Assembly (NCBI GenBank): GCA_034428795.1
Contig: DAOUHF010000121.1
Span: 3,680-67,679 of the forward strand
Direction of reading: 5' to 3'
Origin: Dehalococcoidia bacterium
GTDB taxonomy: Bacteria; Chloroflexota; Dehalococcoidia; Lucifugimonadales; UBA3495
DNA length: 64,000 nt
In this document: positions 3,597-33,954 of the stretch, one piece after another
Layout of the letters: each line of letters opens with the position of its first letter
Numbering within the stretch: position 1 is the first letter of the stretch
The notes under the pieces: generated by a model
What the model saw: the letters and a program-made list of their open reading frames with translations, nothing else
Database searches by the model: none
What the model was told of the DNA's origin: nothing
Position numbers and translations under genes: made by a program

Positions 3597-3671
3597 TGGT
3601 GGGCCCGGCAGGGATCGAACCTGCCACCAGCCGGTTATGAGCCGGCTGCTCTACCACTGAGCTACGGGCCC
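3597..3671 (-). tRNA. tRNA with CAT anticodon, most likely tRNA-Ile2 (lysidine-modified); encoded CCA
   Basis: Reverse complement GGGCCCGTAGCTCAGTGGTAGAGCAGCCGGCTCATAACCGGCTGGTGGCAGGTTCGATCCCTGCCGGGCCCACCA folds as a cloverleaf. G1-C72 pair excludes fMet; the anticodon arm resembles Ile2 tRNAs. Confidence 0.93.
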
Positions 3672-9732: not shown

Positions 9733-10002
9733 ATGGCCAGGTTTCTTGCTACCCACACAGTCTCCGGACTCACCGAAGAGGAATTCCGGGAAAAGCTGGG
9801 GGCTGTCCGCAAATGGCGGCCAGACCGCCGCACCACCATCCTCAAGGTTTACGCCGACACCCAGAACGGCAAGCTGGTCACCGAATGCGAGGCCGCCGAG
9901 CAGGCCCACTTCGAAGACTGGATGAAGATGGTAGGCTGGCCCGCCGAGTCCATCTACGAGATAGACATGGTCTGCCAGGTGGGCAACATCTGGAAGCTGT
10001 AG
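9733..10002 (+). CDS. Small protein, DUF4242/nickel-binding-like
   Basis: AAGGAG RBS; MARFLATH...KVYADTQNGKLVTECEA...H...GWPAESIYEI pattern. Confidence 0.6.
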   Translation: MARFLATHTVSGLTEEEFREKLGAVRKWRPDRRTTILKVYADTQNGKLVTECEAAEQAHFEDWMKMVGWPAESIYEIDMVCQVGNIWKL

Positions 10003-10014: not shown

Positions 10015-11742
10015 TCAGGGCGTTGGATGATTCCACGGGCTCCGATTTATGTTGGAGAGACCCTTGCGAGTCCGCTCTTTGTCGTCCCTCCTTTCGTGTT
10101 CAAACAGGCGATGAAGAGCTTGAGCCTGCCCCGTAGTCTGCCAGGGAGTGCTCCCAACGATCACAGTTCTCCTTGGGCCCGTCTTCACTGATTGCTGTTC
10201 TATGCCGACCCTACCATATCTATCAATTATCAAGCGCAAGGTATGGCCAATCAGTCGTGCGTCTATTTTTTCATCGATGTACTCTTGCGAGAGAACGAGT
10301 CCGTTGGGATAGGTGATACTTAGTTGGTAGGTCTTAGGGAATAAACCGGAGCGCATGATTGCAGATCGCCGTGTTACTGGAGATGAAACGAACACAGCGA
10401 ATGGCCTGAAATCTGCCGCGAAATTTTGGAATGGTACATATTCCGCTTTGTCTCCCGACTCAAGGTCCTCTAAAGTTACGTGGGCTGGAAGCCGGTTCAG
10501 ATACAAAGGAGAATAGGAATCCGTGTAGCTGTAGCAGGCGCCCATGCTGATCCCTACCAATTCCAGGTCCGGAGTTCCAGCGAGCGCGGGTAGCAACTCC
10601 GCGGCGGTGATAACTTTGTCAGAACCGAACCAATTTGACAGGTTCTTACGGAATGACGGTAACCTGGTCGGGCCTCCAAAAAGGATGATCTTATCGACGT
10701 CCTCAGCCATGTGATTCCGGGTTAACTGCCAAACGCACCTGACCGCCCCGGTAATGTTTCTTGAAATTATTTCGCCGATGGGAGGGTCATCTTCACCGTG
10801 ACCGCGTTTCCACAGCGTTTTTGCGCCAATATATGCGTCGTGGGCCGTCGAGAGCGACTTTCTTGTGAAGCCACGCGCTTCCAGCGCTTCTTCCACATCG
10901 TTCAATGTGAGAACGACTTGGCCCAGAGACACGGAGGGATTTACGTCAGTAAGCTGTTCTTTTGCCTTCCGTAGCAGGTCCGGTTGGCCACGATAGCCCT
11001 TTTTCTTGGTCAACCACTCATCCAGGTCGGACCCTCCCAACAAAGGGTGTCCGTCCGCCCCGTAGACTAACATTTGGTCTTCGTCGACCTCTACGAGGGC
11101 GCAGTCGAATGAGCCGCCTCCGAAATCAAAGACCAAATACGAGCCGTGGCCCAGGTCTCCCAGCCTGCGGGCGAGAGTTAGAAATAGAATTGGCTCCTCG
11201 GAAACCCAATCGACGTTCCCCTTGCCAGTAACGTCAGATAGCGCTTGGGCCAATCCTTCCCGGTAAGACAGGTCCGCATGTACCGGGCAACCTGCGCGCC
11301 ATTCAAATTCACCCTCCAAGCGGGCGCGGCGGAATCCCTCAGCCAAGATCCCACGTATCAGTTGCCATACTGGAAATTCGTGACCCCATGCCTGAACACA
11401 ACCATTTTGTGGGCTCCACCAAGTTGGCGGCCATTGCGGGATTTCCTCTTGGGAGTTTCGAACTCCCAGGTGCCATGCTACATAGGCGTCGGTGGACAAG
11501 GCAATTCTCTTGATATTCCTTATCACCAGAGTTCTGTTGTCTTCGTCCTGCAGGGCATCAGCCTCCTCTCCTACGACGACAGAGATTTCGCCGTCTGTCT
11601 CTCGCCGCAAAGCTACGACCGCTGGCATAGTCGTAGTATTCTGGGCGCCGATGAAGCTCGGTTGAGGGGGAAGGTCCTGCTCGGAATCCCAAGTCGAAAT
11701 CCTGACATTGATCGTACCGAAATCTACACCGAGGCCTTGCAT
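10015..11742 (-). CDS. Atypical Hsp70/actin-fold ATPase
   Basis: GVDFGTIN phosphate-1 motif, EEP, LVFDFGGGSFD phosphate-2 motif, LGGSDLD, IILFGGPTRLP; no canonical DnaK substrate-binding domain recognised. Confidence 0.85.
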   Translation of the reverse strand: MQGLGVDFGTINVRISTWDSEQDLPPQPSFIGAQNTTTMPAVVALRRETDGEISVVVGEEADALQDEDNRTLVIRNIKRIALSTDAYVAWHLGVRNSQEEIPQWPPTWWSPQNGCVQAWGHEFPVWQLIRGILAEGFRRARLEGEFEWRAGCPVHADLSYREGLAQALSDVTGKGNVDWVSEEPILFLTLARRLGDLGHGSYLVFDFGGGSFDCALVEVDEDQMLVYGADGHPLLGGSDLDEWLTKKKGYRGQPDLLRKAKEQLTDVNPSVSLGQVVLTLNDVEEALEARGFTRKSLSTAHDAYIGAKTLWKRGHGEDDPPIGEIISRNITGAVRCVWQLTRNHMAEDVDKIILFGGPTRLPSFRKNLSNWFGSDKVITAAELLPALAGTPDLELVGISMGACYSYTDSYSPLYLNRLPAHVTLEDLESGDKAEYVPFQNFAADFRPFAVFVSSPVTRRSAIMRSGLFPKTYQLSITYPNGLVLSQEYIDEKIDARLIGHTLRLIIDRYGRVGIEQQSVKTGPRRTVIVGSTPWQTTGQAQALHRLFEHERRDDKERTRKGLSNINRSPWNHPTP

Positions 11743-13248
11743 TTACTCGCTCTCCGATTGACGTATCACGTTGGCCTTGAGGATCATACGATCACCAAAC
11801 GGTCCCCCGCGAACGATCACGCCCGGAGCTACCGTCAGCACTAAGGTACCGCTGGGAATTTCCCCCGCTGAGTAGTGTAACGCCGGGTCGTATATCACCG
11901 TTTCGCCGACCGTCCCAAGCGTCCCGGCCCCGCCCTCCCGTAGTGCGATTGGTAGACTGTCTATGACATTTTCTAGTCGGGCTTGAGCACTCGTTTCCGA
12001 CTGGTAGGCCCGCTGGAGCGTGTCACCGACAGCGAGCAACATACCCTGGCGGATTTCGAGTCTGGATTCCTCGCGGCCAGAGGCCATTTGAGCACGGAAC
12101 GCTTGCACCTGCTGGCTTAAGCGTTGTTGTTCCCGGCACCTTAGTCTCAACTGATCCTCGTAGTATGTACTCTTCTGTTCTTGGTCCGACCGCTGTTGCT
12201 CCAATCGGCTCTCGTAAGATAAGCGCTGCTGTTCGAGCTGACCCTCGTAGGACAGGCACAGCATTTCTCGTTCCTGCTGATGTTGTCCCAGTTGTGTCTC
12301 ATAGTCCGCGCGCTGCTGTTTCTGATCCAGCCGCTGCTGTTCCAGCCGCTCCTCGTAAAATCTCGACCGCTGCGCGCCCAATTGACCAGATAAAGCCCCC
12401 GCCAGAAACTTGGATAATCCTGTCTCTTCGGTGTGTTGAGACAACCGGCCGAGCAACTCGACGGTCTGCTCAATCAAATGTCTATCGGAATCCGGCCACG
12501 TGCACCCAATCCATCGCATAGAGGCCCGGCTCACCGACTCGAGCCAGCCCGCCGCCACCGTTGGAGGAGTGCTATCTGACGTCAAAATCCCTCGGGCCCC
12601 CCATATCGTCCGGTCTAAGGCCGGCCCGATTGTCTCGGCAGGCCACTTATCGAGAGCGCCGCATACTGCCTTCGTCGGCGAACGCCCCGGTGGAGGTTCA
12701 GCAATCTCGCTTAGTAGCCACCTCTCCCAGTCGGATACCGTAGCTGGTTTCGGTTTCGGCGGCGGTGGCGCCAGGGGTTCCATTGGCACGTCGTCAACAT
12801 CGACGCCGAGGTTGAGACCGATCTCGTTGATCGCGTTTTTCTTGGTTCTGACGGTCTTGAAATACTTTGACCCGCCAGCGGCCACCCTTACCCGTTCCCA
12901 CCAAGAGTTCCATTTCACGGTCTCACCAAAGACATGGGCTTGAAGCTTTCCCTTGATTTCGCTGGCTTTGGCCGTGCCGCCAATATCCGCCAAGGTTGCG
13001 GCAAGGAGTTTAAGAGGCGCATCCTCTACCCAGGGCCGAATCTTATCCGGGCCGTCCCAGATCATCGCCTCAAGGCCGTCGTCCGGAAGCGCCGTCAAAT
13101 GACGGGCCACTGATAAGCTCATCTGGCGGGTTTCGCTGGTCTTGAAATCGACCGTAACGCCGCCGGATTCATCCCGCCCGATGACCCTGCCTACTCCCAA
13201 GCTATTGTGGCGGACAAACGTCCCTGGCTGAATCCTTGTGCTCGTCAT
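11743..13248 (-). CDS. Multidomain protein: GreA-associated-like N-terminal domain, coiled coil, C-terminal GrpE-like domain
   Basis: N-term VRHNSLGVGRV..VTVDF..MSLSVA..L..L and EIKGKL...WNSWWERVR; YExxLEQQR repeats; C-term LGTVGETVIYDPALH..GTLVLTVAPG...RMILKANV. Confidence 0.6.
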   Translation of the reverse strand: MTSTRIQPGTFVRHNSLGVGRVIGRDESGGVTVDFKTSETRQMSLSVARHLTALPDDGLEAMIWDGPDKIRPWVEDAPLKLLAATLADIGGTAKASEIKGKLQAHVFGETVKWNSWWERVRVAAGGSKYFKTVRTKKNAINEIGLNLGVDVDDVPMEPLAPPPPKPKPATVSDWERWLLSEIAEPPPGRSPTKAVCGALDKWPAETIGPALDRTIWGARGILTSDSTPPTVAAGWLESVSRASMRWIGCTWPDSDRHLIEQTVELLGRLSQHTEETGLSKFLAGALSGQLGAQRSRFYEERLEQQRLDQKQQRADYETQLGQHQQEREMLCLSYEGQLEQQRLSYESRLEQQRSDQEQKSTYYEDQLRLRCREQQRLSQQVQAFRAQMASGREESRLEIRQGMLLAVGDTLQRAYQSETSAQARLENVIDSLPIALREGGAGTLGTVGETVIYDPALHYSAGEIPSGTLVLTVAPGVIVRGGPFGDRMILKANVIRQSESE

Positions 13249-13263
13249 TCCACTTCCTGTCTG

Positions 13264-13968
13264 TCAGTAGAGAAGTTCAATTTCCTTGGCCAGCCAGAGC
13301 CGTTCCAACCCTAGCGACTCCAGGGGAACAAGGCGGGCGTAAATTACGGCGTTCTGGACGATGCCCTGTCCGGCCCGAATTCGTGGCGCAAGAAAAGTGT
13401 AACTTAGGTAGTCTATCGCCGATTCATCATCCGCCAACTCGTCAACGTGAACGGTGATCTGAACGGGGTCGGCGTCGCCTATTGCCCTCGTCAGTTGCTC
13501 GAATCCCATGGAATCCCGTCCGATGTTGAATCGCCGCGCCAAATCGGGTTGGGACCGCTCCCGCACCACCCCGGTTATCTCCTCTGCCGACGACCCCAAC
13601 GGATCAATCCTCATCGTCTCTCGCACGAGGTTCCGGCTTTCGCGGACGCGTTTCGTTATTGCGGGGACGATGGAGTCCCTGCCGCCACGCAAGCTTGGCA
13701 AGAGATCGTAGGCGCCTTGGCGACCGCCCGAGATGTTGATTCCGATAGTCGCCCCCCAGCTAGAGGGGCCTGCGTAAGGCGTCCCGCCGCTTTGCCCACC
13801 GGCGGCTGGCTGCGTCTGGCAATCGTGGAGTGGCCAACCGTCGCCGAGTACGTCGAACAACACCCGAGAGCCGCAATCACATGAAAAGAAGAAGATCCTC
13901 TCTCCACAATAGCGGCAATTCAACGGGAAGGTGTTCGTTTTGCAGTGAAGACCATGAATCATAGACAC
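13264..13968 (-). CDS. Hypothetical protein with N-terminal Cys/His cluster (possible Zn finger)
   Basis: CRYCGERIFFFSCDCGSRVLFDVLGDGWPLHDC; first gene of the operon. Confidence 0.7.
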   Translation of the reverse strand: MSMIHGLHCKTNTFPLNCRYCGERIFFFSCDCGSRVLFDVLGDGWPLHDCQTQPAAGGQSGGTPYAGPSSWGATIGINISGGRQGAYDLLPSLRGGRDSIVPAITKRVRESRNLVRETMRIDPLGSSAEEITGVVRERSQPDLARRFNIGRDSMGFEQLTRAIGDADPVQITVHVDELADDESAIDYLSYTFLAPRIRAGQGIVQNAVIYARLVPLESLGLERLWLAKEIELLY

Positions 13969-14035
13969 CGGTTTTCGATCGCGGTCCGAGGGAGGGCATC
14001 ACCTAAACTAACAATTGGGAATATATTGTATCCGA

Positions 14036-14063
14036 CAGGTGGGCAACATCTGGAAGCTGTAGG
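14036..14063 (+). repeat. 28-bp exact direct repeat, right copy
   Basis: Identical to 9976-10003. Confidence 0.95.
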
Positions 14064-14149
14064 CGGCGGGGGCCGAGGCAATCGCTAGCCGGCTGTAGTT
14101 GAGGGTACAAGGTTTCGTCTGAACTGCACGTATCGCGTATCGGGTCAAA

Positions 14150-14722
14150 TTAAGTGGCCAGCACCTCACGCAGGTCATCGAAGAAGATATTCAGCGAAGC
14201 TACATTTTGCCGGGCCCGGAAGAGGCCATCGTACCGACAATATCATCTGCATATTCCGCGCCGTTCAGCAAGGAATCAACCCCTCCTTCTCGAAAAAGCC
14301 TTCTGAGTTGCGTTTTCAAAGATGCGCAATCGCAGCCGGCCGGTATCGGCGGTGTGGTATTTGCTTGGGCAACGGTTCTAATCGCTTCCTGGTCGGCCAG
14401 ATACCAAGCCTCTATGCAGGGGTTTGGAGCCGCAATTACCAAGGGGCCTAAATAACCGTTGGCATTTCGCAGCAGCGCACTCTTGGTTTCCGGTACTCCC
14501 CGGCAGTCGGTATCCTGAGCTGCTACCACCATGTCGTATCCGGCATAACCCGATTTCAGGTAGTCCAAGACATATCTTCGGAATGACCCCTCCATGCTGG
14601 GTTTCCCACCGGTCGCGTTGCGTGTATCGAAATCGATCACTTCTCCGGGAATGATTTGGCTGGCGGCCTTACGTATGAGACTTGTGATGTCCAACGTCCT
14701 CGAGAAACAGCCCTATTCTCAC
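14150..14722 (-). pseudogene. DUF4276-like partner of the ATPase, two frameshifts
   Basis: GTG at 14722 gives MRIGLFLEDVGH, then the frame shifts to ITSLIRKAASQ... (PNPCIEAWYLAD motif). A second shift near 14226 hides the tail LFRARQNVASLNIFFDDLREVLAT* (TAA 14152-14150). Confidence 0.75.
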
Positions 14723-14725
14723 CGG

Positions 14726-15979
14726 TTAGCCACCTAAGTCCCCACGGATAATCCTCTCGTCTAGCGCCGTGTCGATGTCTTCTGGCTTGAACATCGGCGC
14801 CTTCAGCGGGAAGGGAGTGAACTGCGATCGGTGCCCATCGCGGTACGCAACAACCAAATCAGCGTTTTCAAAGTACTTGGGCATCAGTGGAGAATGGGTC
14901 GTAACGAGTAATTGTTGGCTCATCGACCGGGCTCTTTCCGACAATATTTTGGCGGTTAGCTCGATTCTCCGGGGATGGACTCCATTTTCGGGCTCTTCGA
15001 AACCGATAGTAGTATTGTCTTCTTGGGACGACAGGATAGCCAATAAACCCAATACTCTCAGGGTGCCTTCGGAAATGACTCGCGATGAATAAAAAACCTC
15101 GCCCTCAACAATCAACAACTCCACGAACCCTTCGTCGGTGCGTCGGACGTCCAGGCCGGAAACCGCTGGAACGACCTGCCGCAGAGTCTTAGACAGCGCA
15201 TCGAATTGTCTAGGATTCTTGGCTTTCAGATTGAAGAAATAACCCGCCAAATCCTGACCGTTCGGTCCGATCGCCCGCACTTCCTTTAGCGGCGTATTCT
15301 CCCGCATGAGTATTGGATCGAAATAGTAGAAACTCCAGCGGGCCAATTCCTCTTTGAATGCAGTAATATGCGGATAATGCGGCGCGTATAAAGGCTGTGA
15401 GCCGATAGTGTAAGGTAGTCCGACATCGTGCATAGTCGGATGTGCCTGCCCTTCCATTCGTAGCGAGAGTTTGTCACCGGTTCGTTCGAAGAAGGGGTTT
15501 CTACTCTTCCGCTCGCTCCCGTCTTTGTTCAACGCTACGAGCCGCTCGTCAGCCACCCTCAACACCGCAGTCTCCGGCAAAAACTCAATCGCTAGAGAAT
15601 ATCGCAAGTTGAGTTCAGTAACGTGCCTGGTGCTGGAGGTCGTTAGTCCTTCTCGAAGGTCCCTAATTCGTTTCTCCGTTACGTTAACCGCTTGGTCAGA
15701 AAGAGAAACATCAGCGGTTATCCTGAGTTCGAGTTTTGGCTGGTCAAGCGAATGCTGAATGCCGCGTTCGGTGAAGAACGCTTCCACTGGAATTCCGCGG
15801 TGGGCGTCAAAAGCAGTCTTCAGGTCGGGTTGGGTCACCATTGCGCTTAAAAGGCGGAGAGCATCAAACATATTGCTCTTGCCGGAGGCGTTCGGTCCGA
15901 CGAACACAGTGAGTGGACGAAGCGTCAACTTGACGTCGCAAAGCGATTTGTAGCCGGAAATTTCTACTTGGGTAATCAT
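14726..15979 (-). CDS. AAA/ABC-type ATPase (AAA_21/COG4637-like)
   Basis: VFVGPNASGKSN Walker A, ISEGTLRVLGLL signature, IGFEEPENGVHP Walker B, LVTTHSP. Confidence 0.9.
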   Translation of the reverse strand: MITQVEISGYKSLCDVKLTLRPLTVFVGPNASGKSNMFDALRLLSAMVTQPDLKTAFDAHRGIPVEAFFTERGIQHSLDQPKLELRITADVSLSDQAVNVTEKRIRDLREGLTTSSTRHVTELNLRYSLAIEFLPETAVLRVADERLVALNKDGSERKSRNPFFERTGDKLSLRMEGQAHPTMHDVGLPYTIGSQPLYAPHYPHITAFKEELARWSFYYFDPILMRENTPLKEVRAIGPNGQDLAGYFFNLKAKNPRQFDALSKTLRQVVPAVSGLDVRRTDEGFVELLIVEGEVFYSSRVISEGTLRVLGLLAILSSQEDNTTIGFEEPENGVHPRRIELTAKILSERARSMSQQLLVTTHSPLMPKYFENADLVVAYRDGHRSQFTPFPLKAPMFKPEDIDTALDERIIRGDLGG

Positions 15980-16796: not shown

Positions 16797-17864
16797 ATGG
16801 AAAACGGCTTGATCCGAATCGGCTTGATCGGCGCCGGGGCCAACACCCGTCTCCGCCACATTCCCAGTTTCCGGGAACAGTCCGGAGTGGAAATCGTCGC
16901 CGTGGCCAACCGGAGCCGCGAGTCGGGTGAACGCATCGCGAGCGAGTACGAAATCCCCAAGGTCTACGACAACTGGCTGGAGTTGATGGAAGACGACAGC
17001 ATTGACGCCGTCTGCGTCGGCACCTGGCCTTACATGCACCGCAACCTGGTGCTGGCCGCCTTGGAAGCCGACAAGCACGTACTCACCGAAGCCCGCATGG
17101 CCATGAACGCCCAAGAGGCCCACGACATGCTCGACGCCTCCAGCCAGTTCCCTCACCTGGTCACCCAGATAGTGCCCGCCCCCCAGACCCTGGAGGTCGA
17201 CGCCACCGTCAAGGAATATGTGGCCAACGGTTACCTGGGCGAAATCCTGGCCGTGCGGCTGCGGGTCTGCGACTACCACGGCCGCAGCAACCGGGCCGAC
17301 ACCTTCATCGACACCGAAGCGCCGTTGCACTGGCGGCAAGACCGCACTCTGAGCGGCTACAACATCCTGGGCATGGGCATCTGGTATGAGGCTGTCATGC
17401 GGTACGTGGGTCCCGCCACCCGCGTTTCCGCCATGACCAGGGTGTTCGCCAACAGGCGCCGCGACGAGAACGGGGTCGTGCAGGCGGTGTCGGTGCCCGA
17501 CCACGTCAACGTCCTGTGCGAGATGGCCTGCGGAGCCCAGGCCGATTTTAGCTGGAGCACCGTGACCGGGCTGCAGACCGGCACCGATTTCTGGATTTTC
17601 GGCGCCGACGGGACCATCAGCCTGCAGGGACCGCCCTTCAACAAGGTCCTGGGCGGCAAAAGAGGGGCCGAGCAGCTTGAGGAATTGCCCATCGCACCGG
17701 AGATGAGGGGCAAGTGGCGAGTGGAGGAGGAGTTCTGCAACGCCATCCGCGGCACGGAGTCCATCACCCACACTCCCTTCGACATCGGCGTGCAATACAT
17801 GGAGTTCACCGAGGCGGTGACCCGGAGCGCCCAAACCGGACAGGCGGTGTCGCTGCCGCTTTAG
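16797..17864 (+). CDS. Gfo/Idh/MocA family oxidoreductase (paralog 1)
   Basis: RIGLIGAGANTR, DAVCVGTWPYMH, KHVLTEARMA. Confidence 0.9.
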   Translation: MENGLIRIGLIGAGANTRLRHIPSFREQSGVEIVAVANRSRESGERIASEYEIPKVYDNWLELMEDDSIDAVCVGTWPYMHRNLVLAALEADKHVLTEARMAMNAQEAHDMLDASSQFPHLVTQIVPAPQTLEVDATVKEYVANGYLGEILAVRLRVCDYHGRSNRADTFIDTEAPLHWRQDRTLSGYNILGMGIWYEAVMRYVGPATRVSAMTRVFANRRRDENGVVQAVSVPDHVNVLCEMACGAQADFSWSTVTGLQTGTDFWIFGADGTISLQGPPFNKVLGGKRGAEQLEELPIAPEMRGKWRVEEEFCNAIRGTESITHTPFDIGVQYMEFTEAVTRSAQTGQAVSLPL

Positions 17865-17876
17865 GCGGAAAAGGTT

Positions 17877-18259
17877 ATGGGAGAGTTTACTTGGCAGATC
17901 AGCGTCTGGAGCGCCGACCGGAGTGCTTAGAAACGGTGGCCGCGCTGGTTGATACCGGCTCTTCGTATTCAGCGTTTCCCCGGACTATGCTCGAACGTCT
18001 GGGGGTTGTGCCGCGTTTCCTCCTGCCGTTCGAAATGGCCGACGGCAGCATCATCCATAGGGATGTCGGCTTGGCTATGCTGGTGATTAACGACAGCGAG
18101 AGCTCCATGCGCGTCATATTCGGTGATGACGACGCCGAGCCCTTAATCGGCGCCAACGCGCTGCAAGAATTTTTGCTTATGGTAGACCCGGTTGAGGAAC
18201 GGCTGGTTCCGCGGACAGGAAGAATGAAGCCTTTGGGGAGGGGAAAGCCCCCATCCTAA
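17877..18259 (+). pseudogene. Clan AA aspartic protease (retropepsin-like), 1-bp frameshift after codon ~16
   Basis: MGEFTWQISVWSADRS / LETVAALVDTGSSYS...LIGANALQ; collinear with the intact 19396 paralog; its stop lies inside REP copy 2. Confidence 0.8.
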
Positions 18260-18298
18260 CCTTCCTCCATCGGGGGGAGGGGACTTGTTCAGATGTTC
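18248..18298 (+). repeat. REP-like hairpin element, copy 2
   Basis: 49/51 identical to copy 1. Confidence 0.88.
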
Positions 18299-18335
18299 TC
18301 TAACTCGAACCGGCCACCGGTAAAGGAGAATAAAC

Positions 18336-19373
18336 ATGGCTAGCGAAGGTATACGAGTCGGCCTAATCGGGGCCGGCCGGAACACCCGGGACCGCCATAT
18401 TCCCGGTTTCCACGAGGTAAACGGTGTGGAGATAGTCGCGGTGGCCAACCGCTCCCGGGAATCCGGGCGTCAGGCGGCCGACCAGTTCAACATCCCCACC
18501 GTCTACGACAACTGGCAGGAGCTGCTGGAAGACCCCACCATCGACGCCGTCTGCATCGGCACCTGGCCCTACATGCACCGGGTGTTGACCATCTCGGCCC
18601 TCGAGGCTGGCAAGCACGTGCTCTGCGAGGCCCGGATGGCGGCCACCGCCCAAGAAGCCCACGACATGCTCGACGCCTCGCGGGCCCGCCCCGACCTGGT
18701 CACCCAGATCGTGCCGTCCCCTCTTACATTCAAGGTGGATAACCTGTTGCAACAGAAGATCGCGGAGGGTTACGTGGGTGACATCCTGGCAGTCTCGGTC
18801 CAATCGCTGGCCCCGGCATTCATGGAGGCCGGAGGGCCGATGCACTGGCGCAACGACCGCGACCTGAGCGGCTTTAACATCCTCAACATGGGTATCTGGT
18901 ACGAGGCCATGATCCGTTGGGTGGGGCGCGCCAATAACGTAATGGCGATGACCAGCATCAACGCTTCCCACCGGACCGACGAAGCGGGCAGCCGCGTGCC
19001 GGTCAGCATCCCCGACCACGTCGACGTTCTGGCCGGGTTGGCCAACGGGGCCCAAGCCAACCTGCGCTTCAGCGCGGTGACCGGCCTCGCCCCCGGGAAC
19101 GACGTTTGGATCTATGGCGCCGAGGGCACTCTGCGGTTGGACTCGGGGTTGAACGTCTGGGGCGGCAAGCGCGGCGAACACCAACTGACGGAAATTCCCA
19201 ATCCCTCCGAAGGACAGGCTTACTGGCGGGTCGAAGAGGAGTTCTGCCGCGCCATACGCGGCCAGGAAAGAATCACCCGCACCCCCTTCGACGTCGGCGT
19301 CCACTACATGGAGTTCACCGAGGCCGTCACCCGCAGCGCCCAGACCGGCCAAGCGGTAGGCCTGCCGTTATGA
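18336..19373 (+). CDS. Gfo/Idh/MocA family oxidoreductase (paralog 2)
   Basis: RVGLIGAGRNTR, DAVCIGTWPYMH, KHVLCEARMA; C-terminus almost identical to paralog 1. Confidence 0.9.
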   Translation: MASEGIRVGLIGAGRNTRDRHIPGFHEVNGVEIVAVANRSRESGRQAADQFNIPTVYDNWQELLEDPTIDAVCIGTWPYMHRVLTISALEAGKHVLCEARMAATAQEAHDMLDASRARPDLVTQIVPSPLTFKVDNLLQQKIAEGYVGDILAVSVQSLAPAFMEAGGPMHWRNDRDLSGFNILNMGIWYEAMIRWVGRANNVMAMTSINASHRTDEAGSRVPVSIPDHVDVLAGLANGAQANLRFSAVTGLAPGNDVWIYGAEGTLRLDSGLNVWGGKRGEHQLTEIPNPSEGQAYWRVEEEFCRAIRGQERITRTPFDVGVHYMEFTEAVTRSAQTGQAVGLPL

Positions 19374-19395
19374 TGCTATCGAAGCGAGGGAACGA

Positions 19396-19752
19396 ATGGG
19401 AACGTTCAACTGTTCGGTCAGGCTAACCAGCTTCGATGGCGAAAAGTCCGTAGACGTGGAAGCGCTGGTCGATACCGGCGCCAGCTACAGCGTGTTTCCT
19501 GCCAGCGTGTTGGCCGACCTGGGGGTTTCGCCGGGCGAACGCAGCGAGTTTGAACACGGAGACGGTCGGCGCGCCGAGTTGGATTCAGGTCAACACTGGA
19601 TAACGGTCGATGGTCGAAGTACTGTCACTTGGTCAATATTCGGCGAGGATGAATCGACATTCCTGTTGGGGTCCTACGCGCTTGAAGGGGTGCGACTTGG
19701 CGTAGATCCCTACTCCCAGAGGCTTATCCCGATCATCGGGTTGATCAAGTAA
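19396..19752 (+). CDS. Clan AA aspartic protease (retropepsin-like)
   Basis: EALVDTGASYSVFP, LLGSYALEG..L.VDP. Confidence 0.88.
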   Translation: MGTFNCSVRLTSFDGEKSVDVEALVDTGASYSVFPASVLADLGVSPGERSEFEHGDGRRAELDSGQHWITVDGRSTVTWSIFGEDESTFLLGSYALEGVRLGVDPYSQRLIPIIGLIK

Positions 19753-33540: not shown

Positions 33541-33699
33541 ATGCCTCAGCCGGACCGGTCGAGGCGGTGGAACTGCGGCGGCGGCTCCAACTTGACAACA
33601 CCGGCGGCTGAGCCCATGATTGGCTCAGCGTTTGGGACAAAACGACGCTAGGCGCGGCGTCACACGTTTACAATAGAATAGCCCGCACAACAAGATCCA

Positions 33700-33815
33700 A
33701 CGATGGAAGTGCCCTTCCCAGGGCTTGAACGGGGAAGCTGGTCAAAGTCCAGCGCTGTCCCGCAACGGTAGGTCCCGATTTATCGGGGCGAGTCCGGTCC
33801 ACGGCTCCCATCGAT
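33700..33815 (+). ncRNA. Cobalamin riboswitch
   Basis: GAACGGGGAAGCTGGTCAAAGTCCAGCGCTGTCCCGCAACGGTA core, GAGTCCG 3' motif, CGATGG/CCATCG closing stem; upstream of BtuFCD-like genes. Confidence 0.88.
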
Positions 33816-33954
33816 GTTCTTACCTTCGAGGAAAGGTACTGGCATAGCCCGTTAGCCGCAACAAGCCCTGTTCCTTCCTTGAGTAAGCGTTGGAACAGGG
33901 CTTTTTATTTGTCCGCGACCCATACCAATAAACCAGGAAACGAGGAAACAACGC

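What the first reader, a model, noticed from the sequence alone, without database searches (positions are those of the whole stretch)
10015..13968. Three-gene Hsp70 module whose GrpE-like partner carries a GreA-associated (possibly RNA-polymerase-binding) domain
Seen: the operon Cys-rich protein > 501-aa protein > atypical Hsp70 (TAA directly abutting ATG). The 501-aa N-terminus (HNSLGVGRV..VDF..MSL..A..L, WNSWWERVR) resembles the N-terminal extension of long GreA proteins in spirochaetes and chlamydiae. Its C-terminus resembles the GrpE beta domain (GE...DP..H...G.V....G....R.L.A.V). Inference: a dedicated Hsp70/nucleotide-exchange pair targeted to transcription complexes or acting as a conflict or defence sensor. 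I do not recognise this as a described system.
Basis: partly seen in the sequence, partly recalled or inferred. Interest (0 to 1): 0.8.

Follow-up and report, generated by a model that had tools for sequence, protein, structure and literature searches.

The report
Polymorphic Hsp70 module with tethered GrpE-like partner
A Dehalococcoidia bacterium carries a private Hsp70-type motor and a matching GrpE-type exchange factor that bears domains otherwise seen on RNA-polymerase-binding proteins, and this gene pair is swapped between related species far faster than its neighbours, which points to a role in genetic conflict rather than housekeeping.

Summary
The three minus-strand genes are real. They encode a Cys/His-rich protein (13264-13962), a 501-aa protein (11743-13248) and a divergent Hsp70 (10015-11742, TAA abutting ATG).

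The 501-aa C-terminus is GrpE-like by PDB profile, NCBIfam GrpE models and an AlphaFold model whose top Foldseek hit is GrpE. Its N-terminus is a PcrA/UvrD/CarD-type Tudor barrel plus a winged helix (Pfam HTH_GRAD) that aligns to the internal extension of long GreA factors.

The 501-aa and Hsp70 genes are adjacent in all 37 related loci inspected, all named ones from Dehalococcoidia or Chloroflexi. The Cys-rich protein (zinc-binding region plus OB fold) is an optional third part.

The new result is that the pair sits at a conserved chromosomal site but is hypervariable there. Flanking proteins have a median identity of 85%, against 42-69% for the module parts. Synonymous divergence is saturated, breakpoints fall at cassette or domain borders, and purifying selection is retained. 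That means old alleles are exchanged by recombination.

Best reading: a specialised Hsp70/exchange-factor machine tethered to transcription or nucleic-acid complexes, probably conflict-related. The function is untested. I found no published description.

The parts
13264..13962 (-). Accessory gene encoding a 232-aa Cys/His-rich protein. It has an N-terminal putative zinc-binding region (invariant H5 C9 C18 C21 C30 H48 C50, numbered from the GTG start at 13968), a disordered linker and a C-terminal OB fold.
   Evidence: ORF. 25 homologues and invariant Cys/His columns. AF2 C-terminal domain has pLDDT 82-93. Foldseek's top hits are SSB, RPA and LysRS OB folds: Rim1 6cqo_H prob 1.0, TMt 0.70, E=0.02. 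No Pfam, PADLOC, NCBIfam, PHROG or PDB sequence hit.
13963..14199 (-). Upstream intergenic region of the module. The proximal ~75 nt, including a TACAAT element, are conserved with locus L001; the promoter itself is not mapped.
   Evidence: Sequence. The alignment with L001 shows conservation from TCGGATACAATATA to the start codon. The consensus promoter scan found nothing above background.
11743..13248 (-). 501-aa GrpE-like partner protein carrying HTH_GRAD (whole gene).
13087..13224 (-). Tudor-like beta barrel, residues ~9-54, of the PcrA/UvrD C-terminal domain and CarD/Mfd-RID type.
   Evidence: AF2 strands 11-54. The N-terminal profile's best PDB hit is the 54-residue helicase chain 9dqs_A, which aligns like the C-terminal Tudor region of UvrD1, E=0.0085; UvrD1 itself matches at residues 721-760. 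Pfam PcrA_UvrD_tudor, CarD_TRCF_RID and DUF3553 give weak hits in some members. Foldseek finds PHF20 and PHF1 Tudor domains, prob 0.99.
12814..13032 (-). Winged helix-turn-helix, residues ~73-145. Together with the Tudor barrel it aligns to the internal extension of long GreA factors.
   Evidence: AF2 H-E-H-H-E-E topology. Foldseek forkhead and winged-helix hits. PRK14720 positions 304-438 and PRK06330 positions 139-261. PF27167:HTH_GRAD is assigned to this very protein.
12433..12738 (-). All-helical domain, residues ~171-272, with no recognised relatives. It is absent from some family members.
   Evidence: AF2. Its absence from the L035 partner is shown by hhalign.
12007..12417 (-). Single ~137-residue helix, residues ~278-414, probably a coiled-coil stalk. 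It is built from YExxLEQQR-like repeats. Its C-terminal end is the GrpE-like long helix. In longer homologues this region is replaced or expanded by a helical insert.
   Evidence: AF2. Alignment A1 shows the two length classes. TRF finds a 15-nt period at 12322-12350. GrpE models align from here onward.
11761..11988 (-). GrpE-like helix-bundle helix and beta domain, residues ~421-496. The DP..H and K-A-x-V motifs lie here; the LLxVxDxLxRA motif is at residues 404-414, at the end of the preceding long helix.
   Evidence: Alignment to GrpE 8gb3_E residues 95-184. Nearly invariant H458, K491, A492 and V494. Foldseek 3a6m_A prob 1.0.
10588..11742 (-). Hsp70-like nucleotide-binding domain, residues 1-385, with the catalytic set intact.
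   Evidence: Pfam HSP70 at 40.6 bits, above the 20.6 cut-off. The family profile matches the DnaK NBD at 7e-17 over residues 2-378. D7, K78, E183, D206, GGGSFD and FGGPT are invariant.
10015..10587 (-). Hsp70-like C-terminal domain, residues 386-575, with a conserved NRLP..VTLEDLQTG...LRLVIDR.GRVGVE pattern. It might be an SBD-beta-like domain, but this is not demonstrated. No helical lid is recognisable.
   Evidence: Conserved columns. No PDB match beyond residue 378.

Best explanation
The core is a two-gene machine.

- **The motor.** A divergent Hsp70-family ATPase with all catalytic residues intact.
- **The partner.** A dedicated, translationally coupled protein whose C-terminal third has the GrpE form: a long helix, a helix-bundle helix and a beta domain. 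It is therefore most likely this Hsp70's nucleotide-exchange factor, and probably a dimer like GrpE.
- **The tether.** Unlike GrpE, the partner carries an N-terminal Tudor barrel of the PcrA/UvrD/CarD type, which in those proteins binds the RNA polymerase beta subunit. It also carries the HTH_GRAD winged helix shared with the extension of long GreA factors. I infer that these heads anchor the exchange factor, and through it the Hsp70, on RNA polymerase or on DNA/RNA-bound complexes. The ATPase cycle would then be spent locally, remodelling or stripping a bound protein.
- **The optional third part.** A subset of loci adds a zinc-binding plus OB-fold protein, which would supply or sense single-stranded nucleic acid.

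The cassette occupies a fixed chromosomal site (lepB > module < small SCO4226-like gene) in a Dehalococcoidia clade. There it is a polymorphic locus. Old, functional alleles are exchanged by recombination, the N-terminal targeting half shuffles independently of the GrpE-like/Hsp70 half, and toxin-antitoxin, defence-like and transposase genes insert next to it. I read this as a conflict-related function, such as surveillance of the transcription machinery against phages or mobile elements, rather than housekeeping.

**Shown:** the domain homologies, the strict pairing, the hypervariability, and purifying selection within alleles.
**Inferred:** exchange activity, RNAP or nucleic-acid tethering, and the conflict role.
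For: **Hsp70 NBD**
- Pfam HSP70 scores above its cut-off.
- The family profile matches the DnaK NBD at 7e-17, and the catalytic columns are invariant.

**GrpE-like C-terminus**
- PDB profile top hit 8gb3_E, E=0.0049.
- GrpE NCBIfam models hit 12 of 78 members, best 9.4e-8, covering model positions 54-213 of 220.
- The AF2 model has pLDDT 86 and its top Foldseek hit is GrpE 3a6m, prob 1.0.

**N-terminal module**
- PRK14720 and PRK06330 hits reach 3.6e-14.
- PF27167 HTH_GRAD is assigned to the window protein.
- The UvrD1 Tudor region is the best PDB hit of the N-terminal profile, E=0.0085. The PcrA Tudor domain is an experimentally defined RNAP-interaction domain (PMC5397179).

**Pairing**
- The Hsp70 gene lies directly downstream of the partner gene in 33 of 33 genome loci and in 4 further metagenome loci.

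**Third protein**
- Its OB fold is supported.

**Polymorphism**
- Window versus L001: flanks are 91-97% identical in nucleotides. The segment covering the GrpE-like region and the Hsp70 NBD is 65.7% identical. The stalk and the Hsp70 C-terminus are unalignable.
- Over 300 locus pairs, median protein identity is 84.6% for flanks. It is 42.3% for the partner's N-terminal part (MidN), 64.5% for its C-terminal part (MidC), 65.2% for the Hsp70 NBD and 68.8% for the Hsp70 C-terminal domain.
- Similarity is lost exactly at cassette or domain borders.
- Among 26 syntenic loci there are 8 N-terminal allele groups (>=60% identity) and 12 Hsp70-NBD groups (>=75%). Three flanking proteins form only 1-2 groups (>=85%).
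- dS is 0.05-0.16 in the flanks and saturated in the GrpE-like and Hsp70 parts, while dN/dS there is 0.1-0.3.
- The C-terminal half of the partner co-varies with the Hsp70 (Spearman 0.70-0.73). The N-terminal half does not (0.24-0.44).

**Neighbours**
- In the window, an AAA_21/HEC-01A-like ATPase pair is a clean 2-kb indel at this site.
- In L005 a Phd/YefM-PIN pair lies directly upstream, and in L004 a DDE transposase does.
Against: - No effector domain (nuclease, TIR, pore-former or similar) is recognisable.
- No PADLOC model matches any of the three proteins, and no relatives were found in viral contigs.
- RNAP binding rests on weak profile matches, and the residues needed in PcrA are only partly kept: H14 is retained, but K712 aligns to Q42.
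- An RNAP-binding head would be expected to be conserved, yet the N-terminal half is the most variable part, and some family members lack the Tudor barrel altogether.
- No J-domain partner is encoded nearby (gene lists).
- The Hsp70 substrate-binding domain could not be verified.
- The co-variation of the GrpE-like part with the Hsp70 could reflect physical linkage rather than co-adaptation.
- All loci were found by searching for the partner protein. How often the site is empty is therefore unknown, and patchiness was not measured.
Confidence: 0.5

Rival explanations
1. A housekeeping, lineage-specific transcription chaperone. The pair is a vertically inherited second DnaK/GrpE system that keeps RNA polymerase or a sigma or transcription factor functional. 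An example would be reactivating or recycling stalled or damaged RNAP in slow-growing Dehalococcoidia. There would be no conflict role.
For: The chromosomal position between lepB and metabolic genes is conserved in 26 loci. The surrounding genes are metabolic or housekeeping. The ATPase residues are intact and selection is purifying. The Tudor and HTH_GRAD module is shared with RNAP-associated proteins. From general knowledge, not tested here, E. coli DnaK is reported to reactivate heat-inactivated RNAP and to regulate sigma-32.
Against: Alleles differ far more than the flanks, with saturated dS, discordant nearest neighbours and sharp recombination breakpoints. A housekeeping partner of a conserved enzyme should track the genome. 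The N-terminal targeting half is the least conserved part and is sometimes missing.
Confidence: 0.2
2. An Hsp70/exchange-factor machine tethered to DNA or to some other client rather than to RNA polymerase. The winged helix, and the OB-fold protein where present, would bind nucleic acid directly. The Tudor barrel would bind another protein. The system would then remodel nucleoprotein complexes such as replication, recombination or mobile-element complexes.
For: Winged-helix and OB folds are typical nucleic-acid binders. The conserved core of the partner across the family is winged helix plus stalk plus GrpE-like part, without the Tudor barrel. Tudor folds bind many different partners (PMC5397179).
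Against: The same Tudor plus winged-helix module is fused to the Gre cleavage factor, whose only known client is RNAP. Its best PDB relative is the RNAP-binding C-terminal domain of UvrD/PcrA.
Confidence: 0.2
3. A dispensable accessory cassette that merely sits in a recombination and insertion hotspot. Its allelic diversity would reflect neutral exchange of an old gene pair near mobile elements, not selection for diversity. Its cellular role could be any specialised protein-folding task.
For: Insertions (ATPase pair, toxin-antitoxin pair, transposase) occur at the same site, and phage portal and terminase-like genes lie ~4 kb downstream in 8 loci. Repeats in the stalk-coding DNA could promote recombination.
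Against: Every allele keeps the catalytic and GrpE motifs, and dN/dS is 0.1-0.3 apart from 0.78 in one short segment of the most recent pair, so the genes are maintained by selection. Breakpoints respect domain borders.
Confidence: 0.1

Closest known systems
[quoted passage not shown]
   Same: An Hsp70 NBD with the full catalytic set. The partner has the GrpE long helix, a helix-bundle helix and a beta domain, with the LLxVxDxLxRA, DP..H and K/R-A-x-V motifs. The two genes are adjacent and translationally coupled.
   Different: The partner has ~270 extra N-terminal residues (Tudor, HTH_GRAD winged helix, helical domain) and a much longer stalk. The Hsp70 has no recognisable helical lid, and its C-terminal domain does not match the DnaK SBD by sequence. 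No J-protein is encoded in the operon. The cassette is hypervariable, whereas dnaK and grpE are, from general knowledge, highly conserved.
Long GreA factors of spirochaetes and chlamydiae (NCBIfam PRK14720, PRK06330) and Pfam PF27167 HTH_GRAD
   Same: The Tudor plus winged-helix module aligns to PRK14720 positions ~304-438 and PRK06330 positions ~139-261, with E-values down to 3.6e-14.
   Different: In those proteins the module is fused to a Gre transcript-cleavage factor. Here it is fused to a GrpE-like exchange factor. The function of the module is not established in either context, as far as I could find.
RNAP-interaction Tudor domains of PcrA/UvrD, CarD/CdnL and Mfd
   Same: A five-stranded barrel with the V-x-H-x-x-hydrophobic-G-x-G-x-V signature. 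The UvrD1 C-terminal region is the best PDB hit of the N-terminal profile.
   Different: The E-values are marginal. The lysine important in PcrA (K712) is not kept in the window protein. The barrel is missing from part of the family.
Hsp70-containing conflict systems: GAP1-N2 GTPase-centric systems with HSP70 and GrpE (Kaur et al. 2020, PMC7159879) and CoCoNuT CnuD Hsp70-like proteins (Bell et al. 2024, PMC11090510)
   Same: An Hsp70-family ATPase (with GrpE in the first case) is recruited into a variable, conflict-type gene neighbourhood.
   Different: No GTPase, FNIII/DnaJ protein, McrBC, HEPN or nuclease genes accompany the pair here. In CoCoNuTs the Walker-like motifs are degenerate, whereas the catalytic residues here are invariant.
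Eukaryotic BAG-1M/Hap46 (functional analogy only)
   Same: An Hsp70 nucleotide-exchange factor that also carries a targeting function towards DNA and transcription. The paper PMC2672009 turned up but was not read; the rest is general knowledge.
   Different: The fold is unrelated (BAG domain, not GrpE) and there is no homology.

Membership tests
Hsp70 (Pfam PF00012) | Actin-fold nucleotide-binding domain scoring above the family cut-off | tested here: met
   PF00012 scores 40.6 bits against a cut-off of 20.6. The family profile matches the DnaK NBD at 7e-17 over residues 2-378.
Hsp70 (Pfam PF00012) | Catalytic and phosphate-binding residues (DnaK D8, K70, E171, D194, GGGTFD, adenosine motif) | tested here: met
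   D7, K78, E183, D206, G208-D213 (GGGSFD) and G356-G357 are invariant in 35 family members.
Hsp70 (Pfam PF00012) | Substrate-binding domain (beta sandwich plus helical lid) | tested here: inconclusive
   No PDB match beyond residue 378. hhalign against the DnaK SBD gave prob 0.1%. A DnaK-like pattern is visible by eye only.
GrpE (Pfam PF01025 and NCBIfam GrpE models) | Sequence-profile match over the long helix, the helix bundle and the beta domain | tested here: met
   The match holds at family level. PDB top hit is GrpE 8gb3_E, E=0.0049. PRK14164 hits 12 of 78 members, best 9.4e-8, and other GrpE models hit too. The window protein alone does not reach any GrpE model.
GrpE (Pfam PF01025 and NCBIfam GrpE models) | GrpE fold | tested here: met
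   The AF2 model has pLDDT 86. Its top Foldseek PDB hit is 3a6m_A GrpE: prob 1.0, TMt 0.46, 121 columns, whole-chain E=0.06.
GrpE (Pfam PF01025 and NCBIfam GrpE models) | Dimerisation, binding to the Hsp70 NBD and acceleration of nucleotide release | not testable with these tools
   This needs a complex prediction or biochemistry. There is only indirect support: strict adjacency and co-variation.
HTH_GRAD (Pfam PF27167) / long-GreA extension | Match to the family model | tested here: met
   A precomputed PF27167 hit exists on the identical protein P0001 and on the window gene in L040 and L041. The name appears. The model is not in the local Pfam copy, so the match coordinates were not seen.
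PcrA/UvrD-CarD-Mfd RNAP-interaction Tudor domains | Tudor fold with the family sequence signature | tested here: inconclusive
   The fold is predicted with confidence. The profile hit to the UvrD1 C-terminal region has E=0.0085. Pfam hits occur in only 1-3 members, at E of 6e-4 to 2e-3.
PcrA/UvrD-CarD-Mfd RNAP-interaction Tudor domains | Binding to the RNAP beta subunit | not testable with these tools
   Of the PcrA residues needed for binding (H681, W684, K712, L714), H is kept, W aligns to L/F/Y, and K aligns to Q42 with R41 adjacent (by inspection).
Catalogued anti-phage defence systems (PADLOC-DB 2.0) | Match of any component to a system model | tested here: not met
   There are no hits for the three proteins. 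Only the neighbouring 417-aa ATPase matches, to HEC-01A at 1.6e-62.
Complete Hsp70 chaperone triad (Hsp70 + J-protein + NEF) | A J-domain co-chaperone encoded with the pair | tested here: not met
   No DnaJ Pfam hit appears on the window neighbours scanned or in the precomputed gene lists. The Cys-rich protein lacks the CxxCxGxG repeats. By inspection, there is no HPD motif in the partner.

The most novel reading that the evidence does not exclude
The pair is a stand-alone Hsp70-based immune module. A dimeric GrpE-like scaffold would park on RNA polymerase or nascent nucleic acid through interchangeable Tudor/HTH_GRAD heads. It would sense phage take-over of transcription, for example through phage RNAP-binding proteins. 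It would then use its cognate Hsp70 to strip or inactivate the complex. The allelic head-swapping would record an arms race. This would be a defence system whose only enzyme is a chaperone ATPase.
Probability: 0.25. Interest if true: 0.85.

Novelty: new variant of a known kind. Interest (0 to 1): 0.7.

Why it matters
Hsp70 systems are usually viewed as conserved general chaperones, with specificity supplied by J-proteins. Here the nucleotide-exchange factor carries the targeting domains. Those domains are of the type used by PcrA/UvrD, CarD, Mfd and long GreA proteins on RNA polymerase.

If the tethering is real, this would be a bacterial case of an exchange factor acting as the localisation subunit of an Hsp70. 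It would also give the first functional handle on the unexplained HTH_GRAD extension of spirochaete and chlamydial GreA.

The population pattern resembles immunity loci: old alleles, modular shuffling and retained function. It suggests that chaperone ATPases can be the working part of a conflict system.

The locus is also a natural experiment on Hsp70/exchange-factor specificity, because the GrpE-like half and the Hsp70 travel together.

Tried and rejected
- **PADLOC, PHROGs and viral-contig searches.** No defence or phage match for the three proteins. The only PHROG hit is a generic Hsp70-like family.
- **CoCoNuT and GAP1-N2 systems.** I read both papers. I rejected membership because no McrBC, GTPase, HEPN or FNIII-DnaJ genes accompany the pair in any locus.
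- **ParM/ParR-type partition system.** I considered this because it pairs an actin-fold ATPase with a DNA-binding adaptor. I rejected it because the ATPase matches DnaK specifically and the partner matches GrpE.
- **DnaJ-like role for the Cys-rich protein.** Rejected: there is no J domain, no CxxCxGxG repeats, and the C-terminus is an OB fold.
- **SBD homology of the Hsp70 C-terminus.** This is left open.
- **Sequence search of the Cys-rich family against the PDB.** Nothing found.
- **Promoter and terminator consensus scans.** Nothing above the shuffled background.
- **Literature searches** for GrpE-like/DnaK-like pairs, 'GreA-associated domain', GRAD and PF27167. Nothing found.
- **In-situ positive selection as the cause of divergence.** Rejected because dS is saturated in the divergent segments and dN/dS stays at 0.1-0.3.
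- **My crude ORF caller.** It produced spurious antisense ORFs in this GC-rich DNA and masked the Cys-rich gene in L001. I therefore used tblastn results for co-occurrence.

Full report
**1. What is there**

Window 10015-13968 holds three consecutive minus-strand ORFs.
- A Cys-rich protein at 13264-13968 if read from a GTG. The ATG at 13962 gives the 232-aa length seen in homologues.
- A 501-aa protein at 11743-13248.
- A 575-aa Hsp70-like protein at 10015-11742.

The stop of the 501-aa gene (TAA) directly abuts the ATG of the Hsp70 gene. A 15-nt spacer containing AGGAAG separates the first two genes. A small SCO4226-like gene (9733-10002, plus strand) converges on the 3' end.

Upstream on the same strand lie a 417-aa AAA_21/AAA_15 ATPase (PADLOC HEC-01A 1.6e-62; MAD3-like) and a 164-aa protein with weak RloB/HEC-01B similarity. 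These two are a separate unit; see section 6.

**2. The Hsp70-like protein**

Pfam HSP70 is passed at 40.6 bits against a cut-off of 20.6. A profile of 35 family members matches the DnaK nucleotide-binding domain over residues 2-378 at 7e-17. The residues equivalent to DnaK D8, K70, E171 and D194, the GGGxFD loop and the adenosine motif are invariant. The protein should therefore be an active ATPase.

Residues 386-575 are conserved within the family, with the pattern NRLP..VTLEDLQTG...LRLVIDR.GRVGVE. They match nothing in the PDB by sequence. hhalign against the E. coli DnaK substrate-binding domain was not significant. Whether this region is an SBD-beta-like domain stays open. No helical lid is evident.

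**3. The 501-aa protein**

An AlphaFold model built on 78 homologues is confident, with mean pLDDT 86. It shows:
- a five-stranded barrel (residues ~11-54);
- a winged helix (~78-145);
- a helical domain (~171-272);
- one ~137-residue helix (278-414);
- a further helix (421-438);
- a small beta domain (442-496).

*The C-terminal third is GrpE-like.*
- The family profile's best PDB hit is M. tuberculosis GrpE (8gb3_E, E=0.0049). The alignment runs through LLAVGD.LQRA / LLGVLDDLERA, YDP.LHHS / FDPVLHEA and the final beta strands.
- NCBIfam GrpE models hit 12, 9 and 8 of 78 members (best 9.4e-8) over model positions ~54-213 of 220.
- The top Foldseek PDB hit of the whole model is T. thermophilus GrpE (3a6m_A, prob 1.0).

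*The N-terminal ~140 residues align to the interior of long GreA proteins.*
- PRK14720 positions ~304-438 of 906, and PRK06330 ('transcript cleavage factor/unknown domain fusion protein') positions ~139-261 of 718.
- The window protein scores 3.8e-4. 17 and 13 of 78 members hit these models. More divergent family members reach 3.6e-14.
- The window protein carries the precomputed Pfam family PF27167, named HTH_GRAD.

*The barrel in front is a Tudor domain of the bacterial RNAP-binding kind.*
- The best PDB hit of an N-terminal profile is the 54-residue helicase chain 9dqs_A (E=0.0085). It aligns like residues 721-760 of UvrD1.
- A few members hit Pfam PcrA_UvrD_tudor, CarD_TRCF_RID or DUF3553.
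- The PcrA Tudor domain is an experimentally defined RNAP-interaction domain related in fold to those of Mfd, CarD and RapA (PMC5397179).
- Of the PcrA residues needed for binding, the histidine is kept and the lysine is not, so RNAP binding is a lead and not a result.

**4. The Cys-rich protein**

Its 25 homologues share invariant H5, C9, C18, C21, C30, H48 and C50 in the first 50 residues. The AF2 model is poor there but confident for residues ~115-234. That region is an OB fold resembling SSB, RPA and the LysRS anticodon-binding domain (Rim1 6cqo_H prob 1.0, TMt 0.70, E=0.02). It is best described as a zinc-binding region plus an OB fold, a plausible single-stranded nucleic-acid binder. It has no J domain.

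**5. Co-occurrence**

A scan of one genome per species found 33 loci encoding relatives of the 501-aa protein. All are in MAGs named Dehalococcoidia or Chloroflexi. In 33 of 33 loci an Hsp70-like gene follows immediately.

Four further metagenome loci, reached from distant Hsp70-like or Cys-rich proteins, show the same pairing (L034, L035, L036, L038). Their partner proteins belong to the same family (hhalign prob 100 for L035 and L036), although some lack the Tudor barrel or the helical domain.

The Cys-rich gene is clearly present in only about 6 of the 34 loci in the genome-scan comparison. In L038 it lies downstream of the Hsp70 gene. In L037 and L039 homologues occur without the pair.

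The conserved unit is therefore the two-gene pair. Its conserved architectural core is winged helix plus stalk plus GrpE-like domain, together with the Hsp70. No relatives were found in viral contigs.

**6. The unexpected part: a hypervariable cassette at a fixed site**

In 26 loci the pair sits in the same chromosomal context: Gfo/Idh/MocA oxidoreductase, lepB, the module, then the convergent SCO4226-like gene and two MaoC-like genes.

*Window versus its closest relative, L001.*
- Flanks are 91-97% identical in nucleotides.
- The 2-kb ATPase/164-aa pair is simply absent from L001, as a clean indel.
- The Cys-rich gene and the N-terminal half of the partner are 86.6% identical.
- The stalk is unalignable.
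- The GrpE-like part plus the Hsp70 NBD are 65.7% identical.
- The Hsp70 C-terminus is unalignable.
- Identity returns to 91% exactly at the next gene.

*Other pairs.* L013 and L023 lose similarity over precisely the two genes. L003 and L017 lose it only over the Cys-rich gene and the N-terminal part of the partner.

*Over 300 locus pairs.*
- Median protein identity is 84.6% for flanks. It is 42.3% for the N-terminal half, 64.5% for the GrpE-like part, 65.2% for the NBD and 68.8% for the Hsp70 C-terminal domain.
- The GrpE-like part co-varies with the Hsp70 (Spearman 0.70-0.73). The N-terminal half is largely decoupled (0.24-0.44).
- In 57 pairs the N-terminal half is below 50% identical while the GrpE-like part is at least 70% identical.

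*Allele groups and selection.*
- There are 8 N-terminal allele groups (>=60% identity) and 12 NBD groups (>=75%), against 1-2 groups (>=85%) for three flanking proteins.
- Nearest neighbours by flank and by cassette often disagree.
- For the window versus L001, synonymous divergence is 0.05-0.16 in the flanks, ~0.4 in the Cys-rich and N-terminal parts, and saturated in the GrpE-like and Hsp70 parts.
- dN/dS stays at 0.1-0.3 there, against 0-0.15 in most flanking genes and up to 0.27 in lepB. The exception is 0.78 for the short GrpE-like segment in the most recently diverged pair.

The diversity is therefore not rapid in-place change. It is old, functional alleles being exchanged by recombination, with domain-level mosaicism.

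*Neighbours at the same spot.* Other loci carry a Phd/YefM-PIN toxin-antitoxin pair (L005) or a DDE transposase (L004) here. Phage portal and terminase-like genes lie ~4 kb downstream in eight loci.

**7. Interpretation**

*Shown:* a catalytically intact Hsp70 and a GrpE-type partner that are inseparable. The partner carries a Tudor/HTH_GRAD module shared with RNAP-associated proteins. There is an optional OB-fold protein. The cassette is polymorphic.

*Inferred:* the partner is this Hsp70's exchange factor and, through its N-terminal heads, localises the ATPase on RNA polymerase or nucleic-acid-bound complexes. The allelic pattern, together with the insertions next to it, points to a conflict-related role.

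*Against this reading:*
- No effector domain is recognisable.
- No catalogued defence model matches.
- The supposedly RNAP-binding half is the least conserved part and is sometimes absent.
- No J-protein is linked.
- All loci were ascertained through the partner protein itself, so patchiness is unmeasured.

The rivals are a housekeeping transcription chaperone, a DNA- or other-client-tethered remodeller, and a neutral passenger in a recombination hotspot. I put about 0.5 on the combined best reading, with near certainty on the domain assignments and much less on RNAP tethering or defence.

**8. Comparison with known systems, and novelty**

It works like DnaK-GrpE, but the targeting function sits on the exchange factor. 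It shares a module with long GreA. It resembles the Hsp70-containing conflict systems described by Kaur et al. and the CoCoNuT CnuD proteins only in recruiting an Hsp70. None of their defining partners is present.

I found no paper describing this pair. Pfam already models the HTH domain.

I rate it a new variant of a known kind (Hsp70 plus GrpE-type factor), with an unusual architecture and an unusual evolutionary mode.

Noticed in passing
window 14200-15979 (minus strand): A 417-aa AAA_21/AAA_15 ATPase (PADLOC HEC-01A 1.6e-62; NCBIfam MAD3-like 3e-44) and a 164-aa protein with weak RloB/HEC-01B similarity form a defence-like pair. They are a clean ~2-kb indel relative to the closest related locus L001, inserted between lepB and the Hsp70 module.
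   Followed up: partly
window 12007-12417 (minus strand; residues ~278-414 of the 501-aa protein): The stalk is built from imperfect YExxLEQQR-type repeats, and TRF sees a 15-nt period at 12322-12350. Homologues fall into a ~500-aa class with this repeat stalk and a ~575-625-aa class in which a ~120-residue helical insert replaces or expands it.
   Followed up: partly
window 9733-10002 (plus strand): An 89-aa protein with a weak match to the SCO4226 nickel-binding family (E=0.0066) converges on the Hsp70 gene with a 12-nt gap. It is present downstream in 25 of 33 related loci at 67-99% identity and serves as the conserved right border of the variable cassette.
   Followed up: partly
L005 6906-7644; L004 6331-7176; L004 15642-16874 and seven other loci: In related loci the site next to the module holds a Phd/YefM antitoxin plus PIN toxin pair (L005) or a DDE transposase (L004). 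A phage portal gene and a terminase-like gene lie ~4 kb downstream in eight loci.
   Followed up: partly
L040 6650-6985 and L041 6635-6985 (same genes as window 13264-13962): Public gene calls shorten the Cys-rich gene to 111-116 aa, the OB-fold part only. The upstream 50-residue Cys/His region is nevertheless conserved in 23 homologues, so the longer 232-aa reading is likely correct.
   Followed up: partly
proteins P0147 and P0178 (alignment A4, columns ~590-730): Some Hsp70-like family members (719-744 aa) carry extra copies of the first C-terminal segment. The VT(L/I)EDLQ(T/S)G.K..Y motif is repeated three to four times.
   Followed up: no
window 16797-19400 (plus strand): There are two paralogous Gfo/Idh/MocA oxidoreductase genes, each followed by a small retropepsin-like (Asp_protease_2) gene. 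The unit is duplicated here and in most related loci.
   Followed up: no
window 33690-33823 (plus strand) and 3597-3671 (minus strand): A cobalamin riboswitch (Rfam RF00174, 52.7 bits) and a tRNA-Met (CAT) gene.
   Followed up: no
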